The notes beneath the pieces are model-generated. The model worked only from the letters and a program-made list of their open reading frames with translations. It was not told the origin of the DNA and did no database searches. The position numbers and the translations under genes were made by a program. From positions 64,001 to 128,000 of the IMG/VR virus record IMGVR_UViG_3300013121_000033: a stretch of DNA of 64,000 bases. The stretch is one strand, 5' to 3'. Shown here in pieces: positions 2,739-22,156 of this stretch (the first letter of the stretch is position 1; each line of letters begins with the position of its first letter). Origin of the DNA: a virus. Taxonomy: Duplodnaviria; Caudoviricetes.

Positions 2739-5700
2739 GGCGCCACCGTACCCGCCGCTGCGGCGTCTCCCATCGCTGCGACGTCCACGGGGGCGTCCGG
2801 TGCGTCCGGTGCGCCACCTCCGATGCCGGGAAGCTGCGGGGTGAACGGTTGCGTTGTCGGCGTGGAAGGTTCAGCGATCGGGACGTCGACAGGTCGGACC
2901 GGGCGGATGTAGTCGAGGAAGTACGAGAACGCCTGCTCGGCTTCACGGCTGTACCCGCGGCGACGGTGGAACTTCGGGTGGGTGACCGTCGTGTAGAACT
3001 CGGCGATCAACTCGGCGCGGTTCGTTGCCGCATAGCGTGACACCTCAGCGATGACCGACTGGTTGTCGAGGACGTACTTGATGAACCGTTCACGTTCCCG
3101 GCGGCGGGTGTGTTCGAGTTTCCCGTCGATGACGTGGCCGAACTCGTGGCGGACGAGGCCGGTGACGGAACCGTCCGCCGAGAACGTCCACTTCCGTTTC
3201 GTCGCGTCGTCGAGGAACACTCCGTCGGGCACCATGCTTTTCGCGATGGGGCCGTCGGCGGGGTCGCCGATCTCGACGATCTCGTCGCCGACTTTCGTTC
3301 GGCTGCGTAGCAGTTCCGAGACGGCCGCCCACGCCGACGCGTCCGATTCGGCGCGTGACTTGTTGAACCCGATGACGGACGTACCGGTGACAACAAACGC
3401 GATCGTGTTCGGGTCGACGCCGTGAGAGAAGTAGCCGAACACGGGGGCGCCGAAGCTGTCGACCTGCGCGGCGAGCATCGGGCTGGACGCGACTGCTTCG
3501 GCCCATGACGCCATGGCGAGGTCGTGGTCTGCTGTCGCTTCGCTCCCGAAGCGGGCTCCGAACTTGTCGACCCAGAAGTCGGACAGCCCGGCCTTCTTGA
3601 ACTGTCCCGACCCGATCTGGTCGAGACTGTTCGCGGACTGCGCTGTCGGGAACGCTGCCCCGTCAGCGAACGCGTCGATGAGCCGCTTCCGAAGCTGGGC
3701 TTCGTCCATCCCAGCGTGGAGCAGGTTCCGCTGAGGCGGAGTCAGGTCGGAGGTGGCTTCGTGGCCGACGGCGATCTGGACGTCGGACCAGTTGAAGTCG
3801 GGGTGTTGAGCGAGAGCGGTGAGGACGGCAGTGGCGATCTTGTCGACGGCGGCGGTGTCGTCGGTGACGAGCCCGTTGCCCTTGATCTGGTCCGGTTCGG
3901 GGATCGCCGCGAGGATCGCCGAGGTGACGTCGGGTCGCTGTGCTGCAACGCGGTTGGTGCGGAGTTGGTCGGTGACGCGTTCGGCGAAGTCGATGAAGGC
4001 CCCGAGGCCGCCGACCTCGTAGCCGTTCTGGACTGCCATGAGGTCCGCGTCGGTGAACCCGTCGAGCGGCGGGAACGCTCCGATCGCAGACCCGAACTTG
4101 CGTGGTTGCGCCCCCATCGACTCTTGGAGCAGGTCGAGGTAGGCGATCGTGCTGCCGATCCGGTCAAGCGCGATCTGGTCGCCGCCGCGGGCGATGGCGA
4201 TGAGGTCGGGGAGGGTGGTTTCGAGGGTGCGGTTGAACTCGTCGAGTGCTGGACGGTTCCATCCGCCTTCGAGGCCGAGGGCGCGGGCTTCGGCGACGAG
4301 GTCCGCTGCCCGTTGGGTGGTGCGGCCGAATCGTTCGAGTCGCGCCGCTGTCGCCGCGTCGCTTTCCACGGTTCCGGTGCGGCGGAGGGCGTAGCGGATG
4401 GTGCCGACCTTCTTGCGGGCTTCGCCGATCTGGCCGAGAGTGACGTTCGGGTCGCCTGCCTGCCAGCGGGCTTCGAGGGTGCGGGCGACTGCCGTAGCAC
4501 GGTTCGCCCAATCTCCGGCGGCGAGGTCCGCTGCGGACATGTTGTAGGAGCGGACGTCGAGAACGGCTTGGAACTCGGAGGCCAGAACGTTGGGGTCGAG
4601 GATCAGCCCGGTGGGGTCGATGTCGGGGGCGTCGGGGATGGCGACGGGTTCGGTGACCCCTTCGTAGCCGTACTCTGCGAGACGTTCAGCGATCTGAGCG
4701 TCGAGTGCTTTGCGGGTCTTGGGGTCGAGGGTGTCGCGTTTCTCTGCGGCGTAGTTGAGCAGTGCGTTGACGGCGAGTGCTTTGCGTCGCTCGGAGGTGC
4801 CGGACTGGAAGTTCGAACCGCGGCCGTTGCGAGTGATTCGGGCTGCTGAGCCCCCCCACTCGAACGACTGCGAGTCGGTGCCCTTCATGATCTTGGCGTC
4901 CCAGATTCCGGTCTTGCGGTCGCGGCCGACGACGACATTCGAACCGCCCTTGTAGGAGCGGGTCACGGAGAGGCCGTCGGGGAGGAGGACGGTGACAGTC
5001 GACGACTCGGGGTTGAGGGTGTAGATGATCTCGGGTGACGCGTACCGGTCCGTCGAGTACGGGGCCGGTTCGCGCCATGCCGCGGTCGAGTCGTCGAACC
5101 CGGTGTAGTCCAGCGACGCCGTATCTGGCAACGGGTCCGGCCCGTTCGGCACGTCGACTGGTTCGTCGGGTTGTGACGGGGTGACCGCGAGGGTGGTGTC
5201 GGCGCCGACGAGGTCACGGAACGTGTCGTAGGGGATCAGGGTGCCGGACCCGGAACGGACGCCGTCGGATTCTGTCGTGTAGGTCGTCCCGGACGGCATC
5301 GTGACAGTCGATCCCAACGGGAAGTCGCGGAGGCCGTCCGGGGTCGACGGGCGCGTCTCGGGGACGTCCGGGTTGGGGGCGTCCGGTTCGGGGACCGGGG
5401 CGGCGAGGTTCGCTGCGGTCCATCCGTCCTGCCACGCCTTGAGAACGTCGATGTTGGACCCGACCTCCGGGTTGAGGACCAGGTTCTTGTCGAGGGCCGG
5501 GGCGTTCGTCTTGCCATCCCGGTATGCCTGCGCGCCGAGTTGGCGGGCCTCTTCGACCGTCGTGAACGGACGGTCCGGCACTTCCAGGGCCTCGGGGACG
5601 TCCGGGGTGGTGTCAGGGACGGAGTCGACGATCCACCGGTCGCCCCGAAGGCCCTGGCTGATCGCCCCCCACCCGTCGGCCGGGGGTGACCAGATGTCGC

Positions 5701-17335: not shown

Positions 17336-17893
17336 GTGGGTTGGAGTATCGGGTTCGATCAGCGGTGGCGCCGCGACGTCGGGTACGGGGTCCCGGCGAC
17401 GTGTGACTATCCGGGGTGCGAACGGTCGATCGACCGTGGCCTCGCGTTCGTGTGTGGCGGCCGCCCGTACGGCGGCGCGTTCGGGTGCGGCTTGTTCTTC
17501 TGCTCGGACCATCAGTTCGGCGTCGAGTTCCCCCTCGGTGACCTCACCCCGAGCGAGGTCGAACCCGACGGCCTGGTAAGCGTCGACGACGACGGCAACC
17601 CGGTCATCTATGTCGGGCAGGTGTGTGAACGGTGCGCCGACTTCCTTCAAGCTGGCGGCGACCTCGAACCGTTCACCCCGTCACTGGACACCGTCGAGTG
17701 GATGGCGTTCAAGCTGCTCCACCCGTCGTGGCAAGAGTGGCGCGACGGGCACGCCGACGAGGTGTCAGCGATGCGCCAGTCGATCATCGACCGGCTGCCG
17801 TTGATGCCTCCCGACGCGATCTCCCGGATCGTCGCCGAGTTCGAGTTCGACGACATCAACGCCGACGACACCCGGCGTCTCTTGCGCCTCTAG
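17336..17893 (+). CDS. Cys-rich hypothetical phage protein
   Basis: AGGAGG SD; MGWSIG...RDVGYGVPATCD.PGC...IDRGL..VCG...GCGLFFC..H. Confidence 0.7.
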   Translation: MGWSIGFDQRWRRDVGYGVPATCDYPGCERSIDRGLAFVCGGRPYGGAFGCGLFFCSDHQFGVEFPLGDLTPSEVEPDGLVSVDDDGNPVIYVGQVCERCADFLQAGGDLEPFTPSLDTVEWMAFKLLHPSWQEWRDGHADEVSAMRQSIIDRLPLMPPDAISRIVAEFEFDDINADDTRRLLRL

Positions 17894-20800
17894 AACAGGG
17901 ACGGCTGGGCGTCGTCCACTGGCCGCCGTCGTTCCTGCACTCCTGCGTACTGGGGGCCTCCGCGGTAGCCGCGTTCGATCCGCTGGCGGATCAACGGCAG
18001 GTAGTCGCCGGTCTTTTCGACTGCGACCACGTTGAACCCTTCGAGGATCGCAGCCTCGATCGTGGTGCCGGACCCGGCGAACGGCTCAAGGATCACGCCC
18101 GGTCGGGATTCAAGGGGCGTCCCGCAGACACGACACCGCCGCAGTGCGGACAGATGACCGGCTTCCGCGGCTTCGGCAGCCTGTCGTGCTCGCGCTTCGG
18201 GAGCACTTCCAGATTCTCCGGCCGGTTGTCCGCCTTGTCGCCGTTCTTGTGGTGCACGACCTCGTCGGCGGTCAGCATCCGACCCAAGTGCTCCGCCATG
18301 ACCATCCGATGCACCAACACCATCCCGGTCTTCGACGCCATCGGGTGCTCCGGTCGATACACGGCCAGGTAGCCCCGTGGCGTCACGGTTGGCGTGGTCT
18401 TGCGTCGGGAGAGACCCGCCGCCTTTGCGGCACACGCCCGCGAGCAGAACCGTGTCGTCTTCGCTCGCGGCGAGAATGTCGTCCCGCACTTCTCGCACGC
18501 TCGCTCGGGGATTGGCGTGCGGCCCCGCATCGCCTCCGCCGCGCACGTCGGTGAGCAGAACTTCTGACGCGCCCTCCTCGTCGTCGTTCCGCACACGGGA
18601 CACGGGGAGCGGGGAATCACCCGGCTCGCCGCCCGGCACGCGTCGGAGCAATACGTCGCCTCCGCCCGCTTGACTGTCGTCCCGCACAGGGGGCACGTCG
18701 TCAAGGGGTGCTTCCGTGCTCGCCCGGCGGCCTTGTTCCTGCACCGCACCGAACAGACGATCTGTTCCGGTCTGTTGGGTGTGAACGGTTCTTGGCATTC
18801 TCTGCACAGCTTCACGATCAGGCAGCGTAGAACACGCGGGGCAGTGCCATGTGGACGGCGGGGTCACCAACCTGCACAGCCAGCGCATCAACGCGAGCGG
18901 TTTCACCGTCGGATGCCGGGTCCCGTCCTCCCCGACCGGTCGTTCCGACGACGGCGCCTTCGCGACGTACATGAACGCCGGATCGGGTAGCTCCACCTCG
19001 AACGTCGGGAAGAACCGCGACGCCCCGCCCGTGTCGCTGTACTCCGCTCCCGTTCTTCGCATACCGAACCCTTTGCCGCCGTCACGAGTCCATGACGACT
19101 CCTCGGTCCCGCGCCGCTCACTCCCAGGTCGACCGGACACGTCCCCGGACTGTTCGTCGAGCGCGGCGACCGGACACCCCGGCTCGCACTCCCACTCCGG
19201 CACATGCCGCCAACGGTTCCATTCGCTGGCTCCCGACTCAGCGCTCGTCTTGCCACCTTCGTAGCCGACCTTGCCTGGGGTCTTGACGGTGCGGGTGCCG
19301 ACCTGTCGGCACCCCTCGGAATGGGAGAACGTGAAGTAGTCGGACCACCCGGGCGGGATCAACTCAGCCGGGATCGCAACTCCGCGTTCTCCGCCCGGAG
19401 CCGTTCCACCTCGATCAGCAACATCGCGTACTGTCGCTCGATCTCCCGATGACCCACCGAATGCGCCGCCCTCGGGACCACAGTCAGGTTCTCCGGGCGG
19501 TTGTCCGCCTTCTCCCCATTCTCGTGGTGCACCACCTCGTTCGTCGTCAGCGGCCGTCCCAGCTTCGCTGCTGCTACCGCCCGGTGCTCCGCCACGTACC
19601 GCTGTGTCGGCTTGACCATCTGCCTGACGAGCGCTTGCGTCGCCTCGGGGAGCAGGTCGATCATCACGAACCGGTAGCCCCCGCTGTTCGTGTAGGTCCC
19701 GCCCTTCCACTGCGACGATCGTTCCTTCACGTACCGGCCCGTCGCTGCCGCCGACATCTTCGCCCGCGCCTCCGTGGTGTGTGCCTTCCCCAGCCGGTTC
19801 CGGTTCCTTGCGTTCGCTGCCTGTCGGCATCGAGCCGAGCAGTACCGGCGACGACCGTTTCGCACCCACCCCGGAGTCACCTCGAACGGCTCGTTGCACT
19901 GACGACAGTTGATCGTCACCCACTCCGTCTTGCGGACCCCCTTCCGCGAAGCCCCCGTGCACGCCATCGAGCAAAACTTCCGTCTCGCCAGGTCCGACGG
20001 CATCCCCCAAATCGGCTCGCCGCAGTGGGCGCAAGGCTTCGAGATTGCCGTAGTAGGCAACGATCGCATCTTCGACTTCGGCGGGGAGGTCATCGCGGAG
20101 AGCGTAGTAGTCATACCGCAGATGCGACATCACGAAGTTGGCGGGCCACCGGCCCTCGGTGGTCGTGCCGACCGCTTTCGATCCGCCGTCGAACCCCGAC
20201 CCGGCGTTCTGCCTGCCCGCGTACACGGCCCCGTTAGCCGATTCCTTCGGGTCGATCTCACGGGCTGGTCGCCCACCGGCCTCCGTCGGAGCGACCCGTG
20301 TGCCGTCGATGTTGAGTGCGCCGGTGCCGTGTTCGAGCACGTTCGCGGCGAGGGTGCCTGACAGCGGCTTGCGGGCGAGAAGGATGGGCTCATGAGCGGG
20401 CTTCAACGCCGTCCCCCATGACGACCACCGCTCGGCAAGGTCCGAGGTAGGGACCCGCTCGACGCGCTCGCCAACCCATCGTTCACCGTCGCCCTGGTAG
20501 CCAAAATCACCACGGGTGATGGCGACAACCTCGTCGCCCCGCTCCATCGCTTCATCGAACGGCGTGACGTCGAGCCCCATCGCCACCTTGATCCTCGGCC
20601 ACAGCCCCGGCTCGGGCAGGCTGATCCCGTCCTCCCAGTTCCGCACGTTCCCGTCCGACCGACCATCGAAGATCGCCCGCTCAAACTCGGCACGCGATAA
20701 CCCCAGTTCCTCGCGACGCGCCCGCATGAACACGACCGCCTCCCGCGCCGCTAGTGCACCACCCGCACGCTTCGCGATCGCCTTCCCAACATTCATGGAC

Positions 20801-22156
20801 TTCGGGAAGCCTGAGTTGCCGGTGATGAACACCTTGCCGTTGCGGCGAGCAACAAACGCGCCCGAGGGTACGCCGATGCACCACACCTCACCCGTGTAGC
20901 TCTCCCACATCGCAGCGTCCAGGTGCCTGTGCTGTAGCTCAGTCGTGGCCGTCTGGCGGGCGTACACAGCGCCACCCGAGCGACCGGTGGCCGGGTCTCG
21001 CATCCCGACCTTCCCGGCCCGCCCGGTGAGGGCTAGCAAGGTCTGGAACCACACGAGGTCGTCCTCGTGCTTCTGGAAGAACTGCCATGCCCCGAGCGCC
21101 CCTCGCTTCCGTTGCTGGTGGCCGTCGCCGAGTAGCGCCGCTTCGAGCAACGCCTCCTTCTCCGCTGCCGTCATCCGCCACAGCAGTTCGTACGTGGGCC
21201 GCTTGCCGGGGAGGTCCGCCCGCACGCGGTTCGCTAGGTCGCCGGAGAAGAACCACGTCGTTTCGACGTACTCACGGTCGCGGTAGGTGCGGGTCCGGTC
21301 GTATCGCTTGTGGGTGCCGAGACGATCCATGAGAGCAGCAATCTGCGCCACCTTGTCAGAGTTGACACTCGACTGGTAAATCCGCACGCCGGTGCCAGAC
21401 AGATCGAACCCGCCTTCGGTCCATACCCAGCCGAGCAGCGCTGCGTAGTCGGTACCGCCGATGCCGGGGCCGTCGTGTAGCCCCGCGACTGGCAACCGGA
21501 GGCGGCGGGCCGGGCGCAGGTCGGCAGCTTCAGCGACGGTCCACACGTTGTCGTACCACTCGCGGCGAACCCCGTTGGTCATCCGCCGTTGGGAGCGCTG
21601 GTGCCAGACACGGTGGTTCGGGGTGAGCATCTGATCGGTGTCGGCATTGCGGAGCACGGTCATGGGACCGTCCCACGGTGCCCGGTAGGTGCGATCGACT
21701 GCGGCGAGAGTTACCGCTCCCGTCGCTGGGTCCCACTGTGCGACGAGGTCGCCTTCCACAAGGTCGATGCCAGAACGCCAACCCGTCGGGGTCAGCACCT
21801 CGACATCGTCGGTGAGGCACCCGTAGACCCAGTGGATCGAGTCTCTGATCTCGAACCCGGCGTCCTCAACCCCCGAAGCCAACCGGTGATAGCAGCGGGT
21901 CGCGCCGAACGCGACCAGGTGGCCGCCCGGTTTCAGCACACGGAAGCATTCCGCAGCCCACTCGCGGCACCACTCCTCGAACCGGCGCGGCGACTCGAAC
22001 GCATCCCAACTCGAACCCATGAAGCCGCCGCCCGGGAAGGCATAAGGCGGGTCCGTCACGAACTGCGTCGATCGAGCAGTCAGGGAGGGTGGGGAGGATG
22101 TCCTCGACGCGGCCGTGGTGGATCGCGACGCGGTCGTCGGTGTACCAGATGGTCAC
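17890..22156 (-). CDS. N4/N6 DNA methyltransferase carrying an intein, an XRE-HTH and two overprinted HNH inserts; +1 nt frameshift near 22060
   Basis: TDPPY, RVLKPGG, GFPKS, WGTALKPAHEPI, GRWPAN, HPTVKP, EPFAGSGTT. The N-terminal strand (..IHHGRVEDILPTLPDCSIDAV) from GTG 22156 is in a different frame from DPPY. Confidence 0.85.
18093..18815 (-). CDS. HNH homing endonuclease overprinted (+1 frame) inside the methyltransferase
   Basis: Four CxxC...CSxxC zinc repeats, then GY..VY.PEHP...VLVHRMVMAEHLGRML...EVVHHKNGDKADNRPENL; TACGCT 8 nt upstream of GTG. Confidence 0.9.
   Translation of the reverse strand: MKLCRECQEPFTPNRPEQIVCSVRCRNKAAGRARKHPLTTCPLCGTTVKRAEATYCSDACRAASRVIPRSPCPVCGTTTRRARQKFCSPTCAAEAMRGRTPIPERACEKCGTTFSPRAKTTRFCSRACAAKAAGLSRRKTTPTVTPRGYLAVYRPEHPMASKTGMVLVHRMVMAEHLGRMLTADEVVHHKNGDKADNRPENLEVLPKREHDRLPKPRKPVICPHCGGVVSAGRPLNPDRA
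19359..20093 (-). CDS. Second HNH homing endonuclease overprinted (+1 frame) inside the methyltransferase
   Basis: Two zinc repeats, NUMOD3-like GKAHTTEARAKMS, WKGG, YVAEHR...LGRPL...EVVHHENGEKADNRPENL; TACGCT 7 nt upstream of ATG 20093. Confidence 0.9.
   Translation of the reverse strand: MTSPPKSKMRSLPTTAISKPCAHCGEPIWGMPSDLARRKFCSMACTGASRKGVRKTEWVTINCRQCNEPFEVTPGWVRNGRRRYCSARCRQAANARNRNRLGKAHTTEARAKMSAAATGRYVKERSSQWKGGTYTNSGGYRFVMIDLLPEATQALVRQMVKPTQRYVAEHRAVAAAKLGRPLTTNEVVHHENGEKADNRPENLTVVPRAAHSVGHREIERQYAMLLIEVERLRAENAELRSRLS
20815..21819 (-). mobile_element. Intein (335 aa) with LAGLIDADG-type endonuclease in methyltransferase
   Basis: WVYG|CLTDDVEVLTPTGW ... LLGWVWTEG ... LLEAALLGDG ... 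RRNGKVFITGN|SGFPKS; removal restores WVYGSGFPKS. Confidence 0.9.

What the first reader, a model, noticed from the sequence alone, without database searches (positions are those of the whole stretch)
19321..20121. HNH insert 1 has a duplicated Ser-His target and protein-like clasp flanks
Seen: removing 19321-20121 (801 nt, a multiple of 3) restores GRWPANFVMSH|SEGCRQVG, and SH appears on both sides (MSH...FSH). The frame-0 flanks LRYDYYALRDDLPAEVEDAIVAYYGN and VAIPAELIPPGWSDYFTF look like folded sequence, unlike the interior. The YYAL codons double as the TACGCT -10 box 7 nt before the HNH ATG. Inference: a second, non-zinc type of clasp that also carries the promoter.
Basis: partly seen in the sequence, partly recalled or inferred. 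Interest (0 to 1): 0.8.

Follow-up and report, generated by a model that had tools for sequence, protein, structure and literature searches.

The report
Out-of-frame HNH cassette inside methylase

Summary
19321-20121 (minus strand) is an 801-nt insertion in a PF01555 phage DNA methylase. Removing it restores the junction seen in an insert-less homologue.

It is an HNH_3 homing-endonuclease gene in the +1 frame. The kind is already published as the 'ShiLan domain' (PMC11855218). This copy is a different HNH lineage at a new site.

New here:
- The same element sits at the same site in at least 13 further diverged methylase loci found through the HNH.
- The host frame is stop-free through 13 of 14. 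Codon-order shuffles expect 2.5-10 stops; P(open) is 0.000-0.047 per locus.
- Both host-frame flanks always co-occur: 13 proteins have both, 0 have one, 109 have none.
- The flanks also bracket three HNH-less 'mini' versions.
- Outside the HNH ORF the flanks are best conserved in the host frame.
- AlphaFold2 gives them pLDDT 83-95, against 32-46 for the interior.
- A TANNNT box at a fixed offset, 7 nt before the HNH start codon, recurs in six copies.

Not supported: the Ser-His duplication is unique to this copy. No splicing signal was found. That the flanks physically hold the loop shut remains a prediction.

The parts
17890..22059 (-). Host gene: PF01555 N6/N4 DNA methylase, one stop-free frame of 1389 codons. 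It holds an intein, insert 1 and insert 2.
   Evidence: ORF list and Pfam hit, E=3.4e-18. It is 52-62% identical to mycobacteriophage methylases, including the ShiLan gp65 family.
22061..22156 (-). True N-terminal 32 codons of the methylase, in another frame. One extra base at 22060 separates them from the rest.
   Evidence: Sequence reading. Homologues have this segment in frame. TACGCT lies 9 nt before the GTG at 22156.
20815..21819 (-). Classical intein at the same site as in phages Lilac, Hannaconda and RedBird; ShiLan gp65 carries one too.
   Evidence: Alignment A1 with phage methylases that have or lack it; ShiLan gp65 translation.
20122..20154 (-). Host motif GRWPAN....H. It ends in the conserved His directly before the insertion point.
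   Evidence: G, R, W, P, N and H are nearly invariant in 71 sequences.
19321..20121 (-). Insert 1: an 801-nt cassette, in frame with the host and with no host-frame stop.
20017..20121 (-). 5' flank in the host frame: a predicted strand plus a helix. The first 9 codons lie upstream of the likely HNH start; the rest overlaps the HNH N-terminus.
   Evidence: AF2 places strand 95-101 and helix 107-128; mean pLDDT per 10-residue block is 90, 95 and 83 for residues 91-120, then 49 for 121-130. Host-frame conservation score for insert codons 1-9 is 1.38, against 0.16 and 0.29 in the other frames. Aligned in 20 family members.
20101..20106 (-). TACGCT, a -10-like hexamer inside the Tyr-Ala codons of the host frame.
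   Evidence: It lies 7 nt before ATG 20093. TANNNT stands at the same offset in 6 of 8 full copies and in L023 and L024. There are only 12 TACGCT in the 225-kb genome, and 4 of them lie 6-9 nt before the start of a long ORF.
19359..20093 (-). HNH_3 homing-endonuclease ORF in the +1 frame, with N-terminal zinc-ribbon repeats. It runs from the likely start ATG 20093 to the stop at 19359-19361; the maximal ORF starts at 20114.
   Evidence: Pfam PF13392, E=8.7e-10. 68 relatives, about 30 of them at 53-66% identity. The start aligns with the starts in L018, L019 and L024.
19321..19380 (-). 3' flank in the host frame (motif ..LIPPGW..YF..). The last 38 nt lie after the HNH stop codon.
   Evidence: AF2 pLDDT 92-95. 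Host-frame score for the post-stop codons is 2.25, against 0.98 and 0.47. The motif persists in copies whose HNH is only 35-40% identical.
19309..19320 (-). Host sequence resumes (SEGC), with the first of three conserved Cys.
   Evidence: H93, C364, C405 and C409 of the model numbering are nearly invariant.
18100..18855 (-). Insert 2, for context: a second out-of-frame HNH cassette (ORF 18093-18815) with Cys-x2-Cys flanks in the host frame and its own TACGCT at 18824-18829.
   Evidence: P0001 has a short in-frame version with the same flanks. HNH1 and HNH2 are 31% identical.

Best explanation
Insert 1 is a splicing-free homing element. It is an HNH_3 endonuclease gene carried in the +1 frame inside a phage PF01555 DNA-methylase gene. 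It was inserted exactly after the conserved His of the GRWPxN....H motif of the target-recognition region.

Shown:
- It is an insertion, absent from close homologues.
- Homologous cassettes occupy the same site in methylases only 32-57% identical to each other.
- The HNH can be far more alike than its hosts (84-88% against 41-56%), which points to horizontal spread.
- The host frame is kept free of stops far beyond chance, and the length is a multiple of three.
- There is no room for, and no signal of, an intron ribozyme or an intein.

Inferred:
- The methylase mRNA is translated straight through. This yields a methylase with a ~267-residue insertion whose interior is disordered filler.
- The two ends of the insertion (about 30 and 20 residues) form a small alpha/beta unit at the base of the loop, next to the host His/Cys motif. 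This unit brings the chain back together.
- The endonuclease is made separately from a leaderless transcript. That transcript starts at ATG 20093 and is driven by the TACGCT -10 box embedded in the 5' flank.
- The endonuclease cuts insert-less methylase alleles in co-infecting phages, so that repair copies the cassette in.
- Copies that lose the HNH by internal in-frame deletion survive as minis that keep both flanks.
For: It is an insertion.
- P0001 and about 50 other homologues lack it at this exact point.

The kind is published.
- PMC11855218 and PMC9957025 describe it. I saw the nested HNH in MISSy myself, and the same read-through insert translations in ShiLan, Starcevich and Mantra.

The same element sits at the same site, always in the +1 frame.
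- Loci: L014/15, L016, L017, L018, L019, L020, L022, L023, L024, L025, L026, L027.
- 12 read-through proteins from an exhaustive search carry it too.

The host frame is kept open.
- It is open in 13 of 14 loci found through the HNH.
- Shuffles give P(open) of 0.000-0.047 per locus, with 2.5-10.2 stops expected and 0 observed. This includes a 49% GC copy.

No splicing signal.
- Rfam gave no intron hit in the window at E<=1, nor in 8 related loci.
- Only 7-28 nt and 38 nt of the insert lie outside the ORF.
- Pfam finds nothing but the methylase in the host frame.

Flanks.
- Co-occurrence: 13 with both, 0 with one, 109 with neither.
- Minis: P0074/L013, P0197, P0202. L013 keeps remnants of the HNH N- and C-termini and its stop codon in the +1 frame, so it is a deletion derivative.
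- Frame-specific conservation.
- AF2 pLDDT is 83-95 (full element) and 91-94 (mini) for the flanks, against 32-46 and 43-55 between them.

Promoter.
-.

Mobility.
- Identity matrix.
Against: - No experiment shows that the insert stays in the mRNA or in the protein.
- In this window the methylase has a 1-nt frameshift after codon 32. This copy may not make an active enzyme, or the record may carry an assembly error.
- A simple codon-position count was flat in the short flank pieces outside the HNH ORF.
- Much of the 5' flank conservation is explained by the -10 box and the overlapping HNH N-terminus.
- The alignment used for the frame scores was built on host-frame proteins, which favours that frame.
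- AF2 confidence is a prediction, no coordinates were available to read contacts, and the matches to known folds are weak (Z<=3.6).
Confidence: 0.78

Rival explanations
1. The flanks are conserved for DNA-level and HNH-level reasons only: the -10 promoter, the HNH N- and C-terminal coding, and perhaps target-site features. They are not a protein module that closes the loop. The methylase tolerates or loses function regardless.
For: - Host-frame AYYG is the same DNA as HNH-frame PTTA, and the Tyr codon at insert position 6 is the TA of the -10 box.
- Insert codons 10-60 score best in the HNH frame.
- The codon-position count is flat in the pure flank pieces.
Against: - The first 9 and the last 13 codons lie outside the HNH ORF, yet score best in the host frame, at the level of host exons.
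- The minis, which have a dead HNH (L013 has also lost the TA of the box), keep both flank patterns.
- The 3' motif persists where the HNH is only 35-40% identical.
- AF2 folds the flanks but not the equally conserved interior.
Confidence: 0.3
2. In this phage the methylase is already a pseudogene. The cassette is a relic whose open host frame no longer matters.
For: A one-base frameshift separates the first 32 codons from the rest. According to PMC11855218 the methylase is dispensable in related phages.
Against: - 1389 codons remain stop-free through an intein and two cassettes.
- P(open) for insert 1 alone is 0.007.
- The host motifs are intact.
- A single indel in a metagenome assembly may be an error.
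Confidence: 0.15
3. The insert is removed from the mRNA by an unrecognised intron or by host-factor-dependent splicing.
For: HNH genes are common in phage group I introns, and some mycobacteriophage introns are atypical (PMC3706429, as cited in PMC11855218).
Against: - No Rfam hit in the window or in 8 related loci.
- The ORF fills all but 7-28 nt plus 38 nt of the insert.
- An intron needs neither a length divisible by three nor an open host frame, yet both are kept in 13 of 14 loci.
- In-frame minis exist.
Confidence: 0.06
4. Ribosomes hop over the insert, from the His codon before it to the identical His codon at its end (translational bypass).
For: CAT precedes both junctions in this copy.
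Against: The repeated Ser-His/CAT is absent from all 19 other copies. To my knowledge the known hops span about 50 nt, not 801. A hop would not need an open frame.
Confidence: 0.01

Closest known systems
ShiLan domain: out-of-frame 'hidden' HNH insertion in mycobacteriophage ShiLan gp65-type DNA methylases (Gosselin et al. 2023, PMC9957025; Arsenault et al. 2025, PMC11855218)
   Same: - Same host gene family: the window's methylase is 52-62% identical and has the same intein site.
- An HNH with zinc ribbons in another frame.
- Host frame without stops.
- No intron or intein signals.
- Patchy distribution.
- Read-through with a loop, and leaderless expression, were both proposed there.
   Different: - Different site: after ALKP in motif VIII there, after GRWPxN....H in the recognition region here.
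- Different relative frame: +2 there, +1 here.
- The HNH is only 31-33% identical.
- The ShiLan insert begins with a copy-like stretch of the downstream host sequence. This family shows no such mimicry.
- Here conserved, confidently folded flanks at both ends, HNH-less minis and a fixed -10/start spacing are documented.
Other reported hidden endonucleases in phage methylases: Pacc40 gp60 (PMC11855218) and Applejack (PMC12613952)
   Same: A nested out-of-frame endonuclease ORF in a methylase, with an open host frame.
   Different: Pacc40 gp60 is, per the paper, a divergent methylase with its insert at another position; I compared neither record's sequence with this one. No flank module is described.
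Inteins and mini-inteins
   Same: - Invade conserved motifs.
- In frame with the host.
- Carry a homing endonuclease.
- Decay to endonuclease-less minis whose two terminal pieces are retained and fold together.
   Different: - No Hint fold and no splicing residues: the insert starts with Leu and ends with Ser-His.
- The endonuclease is in another frame and has its own promoter.
- The insert is presumed to stay in the protein.
HNH genes in phage group I introns (I-HmuI type; cluster J mycobacteriophage introns, PMC3706429)
   Same: A related HNH/zinc-ribbon endonuclease architecture, and homing into conserved sites of phage genes.
   Different: No ribozyme, and the host frame is preserved.
Free-standing homing endonuclease genes that split a host gene into two polypeptides (e.g. 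mobE in nrdA of phage Aeh1; from my own knowledge, not checked here)
   Same: An endonuclease gene inside a host gene without an intron or intein.
   Different: Those create a stop and a restart. Here a single ORF runs through. Only 1 of 14 loci (L021) is out of frame.

Membership tests
ShiLan-type out-of-frame HNH insertion elements in phage methylases | Insertion in a PF01555 methylase at a conserved site, absent from close homologues | tested here: met
ShiLan-type out-of-frame HNH insertion elements in phage methylases | No stop codon in the host frame and a length divisible by three | tested here: met
   801 nt, 0 stops, P=0.007 by shuffling. 13 of 14 related loci are open.
ShiLan-type out-of-frame HNH insertion elements in phage methylases | Another frame encodes an HNH endonuclease with zinc-ribbon modules | tested here: met
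   PF13392, E=8.7e-10; Cys-x2-Cys repeats
ShiLan-type out-of-frame HNH insertion elements in phage methylases | Same insertion site and close sequence kinship with the ShiLan insert | tested here: not met
   Different site and relative frame; HNH 31-33% identical over 157 residues. It is a sister lineage, not the same element.
ShiLan-type out-of-frame HNH insertion elements in phage methylases | Insert retained in the mRNA and the protein | not testable with these tools
   Needs RT-PCR or proteomics. Also untested for ShiLan itself.
Intein | Hint fold; Cys/Ser/Thr at the first residue; His-Asn plus Cys/Ser/Thr at the C-terminal junction | tested here: not met
   The insert starts with Leu and ends with Ser-His. 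The host-frame interior is predicted disordered. There is no Pfam hit besides the methylase.
Group I / group II intron | Ribozyme core detectable by covariance models; non-coding RNA flanking the ORF | tested here: inconclusive
   No Rfam hit at E<=1 in the window, nor at gathering score in 8 related loci. Only 7-28 nt plus 38 nt lie outside the ORF. An unknown RNA cannot be excluded by these models.
HNH_3 (PF13392) homing endonucleases | HNH_3 profile match with the conserved His-His..Asn-Gly..Asp-Asn..Asn-Leu..His pattern | tested here: met
   invariant H189, H190, N198, N202 and H211 in 22 relatives
HNH_3 (PF13392) homing endonucleases | Site-specific cleavage of the empty allele | not testable with these tools
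   Inferred from the same-site distribution across divergent hosts

The most novel reading that the evidence does not exclude
The two flanks are halves of a portable 'insertion-tolerance adaptor'. This would be a small alpha/beta domain, carried by the element and split by the endonuclease gene, that re-closes the host chain. It would let a homing endonuclease colonise a conserved, structurally critical motif with no RNA or protein splicing: a third solution beside introns and inteins. The same ~100 nt would also carry the nuclease's leaderless promoter. HNH-less minis would be its non-autonomous form.
Probability: 0.4. Interest if true: 0.8.

Novelty: new variant of a known kind. Interest (0 to 1): 0.6.

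Why it matters
Homing endonuclease genes are thought to need an intron or an intein to live inside essential motifs. The 2025 ShiLan report raised a splicing-free alternative from a handful of cultured phages.

This window and its relatives add the following:
- The strategy is widespread. About a fifth of 80 HNH_3 loci sampled from metagenomes are nested in an open covering ORF, at five or more methylase sites.
- The host reading frame is actively kept open.
- One lineage carries a conserved, confidently folded flank module and a fixed leaderless promoter.

This gives concrete, testable parts for asking how a protein tolerates a 267-residue filler in a conserved motif. It also offers a possible natural scaffold for inserting cargo into proteins. 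For genome annotation, long 'methylase' ORFs with low-complexity stretches hide real endonuclease genes.

Tried and rejected
- Group I/II intron: Rfam found nothing in the window or in 8 related loci.
- Intein: no motifs.
- Exon mimicry or target duplication. I suspected that the insert's 3' end copies the upstream host strand, as ShiLan's 5' end copies the downstream one. In the window 22 of 33 nt agree, but across 20 copies the likeness equals shuffled controls (P=0.32). Dropped.
- Translational hop between the repeated His codons: not conserved. Dropped.
- Landing-pad idea, that the flanks are native host sequence into which the HNH inserted. Rejected: the L013 mini retains the HNH N- and C-terminal remnants and the stop codon in the +1 frame, and no insert-less homologue has either flank.
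- Complex prediction of the 5' flank against the 3' flank plus host hairpin: no verdict (score 0.08, controls not run). It counts neither way.
- Foldseek of the full model against the PDB: no match.
- VIA search of the mini model: only weak matches to common folds (Z<=3.6).
- Codon-position variability in the short flank pieces: flat, with low power.
- First null for an open frame, taken from the genome's high-GC3 genes, gave 17-21%. It was replaced by per-locus codon shuffles, which are much stricter because these HNH genes use more T-ending codons.
- The search for related loci in viral contigs with HNH1 gave only two weak loci.
Neither the frameshift nor any RNA evidence could be checked.
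- DNA for P0001's contig was not available.
Full report
**What is at the coordinates**

The window is part of a 225-kb, 68% GC virus record. On the minus strand, 17890-22059 is one stop-free frame of 1389 codons. It matches the PF01555 N6/N4 DNA methylase family. It is 52-62% identical to mycobacteriophage methylases of the Lilac, Hannaconda and RedBird type; ShiLan gp65 belongs to the same family.

Against those homologues the frame holds three extra blocks:
- a classical intein at 20815-21819;
- insert 1 at 19321-20121;
- insert 2 at about 18100-18855.

Insert 1 is 801 nt. In the +1 frame it holds a 251-codon ORF (19359-20114) that matches HNH_3 (PF13392, E=8.7e-10) and has Cys-x2-Cys zinc-ribbon repeats.

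**It is an insertion, and the junction is right**

A search restricted to the segment after the insert found 1786 shorter methylases. The closest, P0001 (67-69% identical), reads ...GRWPSNFVLSH directly followed by AEGC.... This is the join that excising 19321-20121 produces in the window. In a 71-sequence alignment the His before the insert and three Cys after it are nearly invariant. The cassette therefore sits inside a conserved His-x3-Cys...Cys-x3-Cys motif, probably a metal site (inference).

**The kind is already published**

- A literature search found Arsenault, Gosselin and Gogarten 2025 (PMC11855218) and Gosselin et al. 2023 (PMC9957025).
- They describe the 'ShiLan domain': an insertion in the homologous methylase of phage ShiLan and relatives that gives no stop in the methylase frame and hides an HNH endonuclease in another frame.
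- They found no intron or intein signature. They proposed that the insert stays in the protein as a loop and that the HNH is made by leaderless initiation.
- I saw the nested HNH directly in MISSy, and the same read-through insert translations in ShiLan, Starcevich and Mantra.
- That element lies at another site (after ALKP), in the +2 frame. Its HNH is only 31-33% identical to HNH1.

So the window shows the known kind, as a different lineage at a different site.

**A family at this site**

HNH1 has 68 relatives in the protein collection, about 30 of them at 53-66% identity. I looked up eight with longer contigs. All eight sit in a PF01555 methylase directly after the GRWPxN....H motif, in the +1 frame. 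A metagenome scan added five more, L023-L027. Three of these have an HNH only 35-40% identical, in hosts that lack the His/Cys ligands.

- In 13 of the 14 loci found through the HNH (the window included), the host frame before and after the insert is the same and has no stop inside. L021 is out of frame.
- Shuffling the codon order of each HNH ORF predicts 2.5-10.2 host-frame stops. It leaves the frame open in only 0.0-4.7% of trials (window: 0.7%; a 49% GC copy: 0 of 2000).
- An exhaustive profile-free search with the mini version returned 12 more methylases, 536-1363 residues long, in which gene callers read straight through the element.
- HNH identity exceeds host-exon identity in most pairs. 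The extreme is 84-88% against 41-56% for L014/L016/L020. That fits horizontal spread between divergent methylases.

**No sign of splicing**

- Rfam found no intron, at E<=1 in the window or at gathering score in eight related loci.
- Only 7-28 nt upstream and 38 nt downstream of the ORF belong to the insert, which leaves no room for a ribozyme.
- The host-frame translation has no intein residues or Pfam match.
- An intron would need neither an open frame nor a length divisible by three.

**The flanks**

- Among 122 fetched methylases with the GRWP motif, 13 carry both flank motifs, none carries one alone, and 109 carry neither.
- The interior between the flanks ranges from about 220 residues down to about 20. 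The short ones are the three minis: P0074/L013, P0202 and P0197.
- The L013 mini still reads, in the +1 frame, the first ~30 and the last ~20 residues of the HNH, with the stop codon in place. The minis are therefore deletion derivatives, not landing pads.
- I scored conservation separately in the three frames over seven independent DNA copies:

| Segment | Host frame | Other frames |
|---|---|---|
| Insert codons 1-9 (before the HNH start) | 1.38 | 0.16 and 0.29 |
| 13 codons after the HNH stop | 2.25 | 0.98 and 0.47 |
| Interior | 1.35 | 3.1 (HNH frame) |

- In the interior the host frame does no better than the third frame.
- Codons 10-26 score well in both the host and HNH frames. Host-frame AYYG is the same DNA as HNH-frame PTTA.
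- AlphaFold2 on the window segment (71-row alignment) gives mean pLDDT per 10-residue block of 90, 95 and 83 for residues 91-120 (a strand, then the start of a helix) and 92-95 for residues 341-370 (strands that run into the host hairpin). Most blocks between are 32-46.
- The natural mini gives the same picture: flanks 91-94, linker 43-55.
- A representative-wide structure search of the mini model found only weak matches (Z<=3.6). All of them span residues ~101-184, so the model treats both flanks as one small alpha/beta unit.

Caveats:
- the frame scores rest on a host-frame alignment;
- a plain codon-position count was flat in these short pieces;
- no coordinates were available, so contacts could not be read.

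**The promoter**

- TACGCT lies at 20101-20106, 7 nt before ATG 20093.
- In the whole genome TACGCT occurs only 12 times. Four of these lie 6-9 nt before the start of a long ORF: the methylase itself, HNH1, HNH2 and one other gene.
- TANNNT in general precedes long-ORF starts in 26% of cases, against 3-10% for control hexamers.
- Across the family a TANNNT stands at the same offset in 6 of 8 full copies, and also in L023 and L024.
- In six copies (window, L017, L018, L019, L023, L024) an ATG or GTG in the HNH frame follows after exactly 7 nt.
- The L013 mini has lost the TA.

This supports a leaderless HNH transcript. It also means that the conserved Tyr at insert position 6 is at least partly a promoter constraint.

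**What did not hold**

- Ser-His on both sides is unique to this copy. The idea that the 3' end mimics the upstream host strand fails family-wide (P=0.32).
- The complex prediction of the two flanks gave no verdict and is not used.

**Mechanism, with status**

Shown:
- insertion;
- homologous cassettes at one site in divergent hosts;
- selection for an open host frame;
- paired flanks;
- minis;
- a conserved -10/start spacing.

Inferred:
- read-through translation with a disordered loop;
- flanks, perhaps with the host His/Cys site, closing the loop;
- leaderless expression of the HNH;
- homing by cleavage of empty sites.

**Caveat for this copy**

One extra base at 22060 puts the first 32 codons of the methylase (22061-22156) in another frame.

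**Verdict**

The kind is known since 2023-2025. This is a new variant: a new site, a new HNH lineage, a flank module, a promoter and minis.

Noticed in passing
window 22060-22156 (-): The methylase's first 32 codons start at GTG 22156, 9 nt after a TACGCT. A single extra base at 22060 puts them out of frame with the rest. This is either a recent pseudogenisation or an assembly indel.
   Followed up: partly
window 18100-18855 (-); P0001 residues ~330-440: Insert 2 has a short, HNH-less, in-frame counterpart in P0001. It keeps the same Cys-x2-Cys flanks on both sides, so the 'mini with retained flanks' pattern repeats at the second site.
   Followed up: partly
whole genome (G000), both strands: TANNNT hexamers are scarce (281 in 2 x 225 kb). 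26% of them lie 5-9 nt before an ATG/GTG that opens an ORF of at least 60 codons, against 3-10% for control hexamers. This suggests widespread leaderless transcription in this phage.
   Followed up: partly
L013:4429-5058; L019:1371-1577 and 4091-4537 (antisense); L022:690-1148; contig of P0001: The same methylase genes carry further nested or adjacent HNH genes at other sites: PF01844 type in the L013, L019 and P0001 contigs, an HNH1-like hit in L022. In L013 the host frame also runs open through a 209-codon HNH. In L019 one HNH-like stretch is antisense.
   Followed up: partly
L032, L048, L052, L053, L064, L068 (metagenome loci): More distant HNH_3 genes are nested out of frame in open PF01555 ORFs at other positions. 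These include the classical intein site (L052, after residue 80) and the linker/ShiLan region. The relative frame is +1 in some and -1 in others.
   Followed up: partly
L034:882-2621; L077:3-1097: HNH_3 genes fully covered by an open ORF in another frame, where that ORF has no similarity to the methylase. These may be out-of-frame cassettes in other host genes.
   Followed up: no
L021:1479-3792: The only same-site copy whose host frame is broken. The frame shifts inside the 5' flank and the methylase resumes in another frame. This is either decay or a sequencing error.
   Followed up: no
L014:2634-4631; L016; L020: These hosts have a different domain order. The recognition-region module with the GRWPAN motif comes first in the ORF, and segments matching the N-terminal catalytic part of the window's methylase follow it. 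The cassette sits at the same motif all the same.
   Followed up: no
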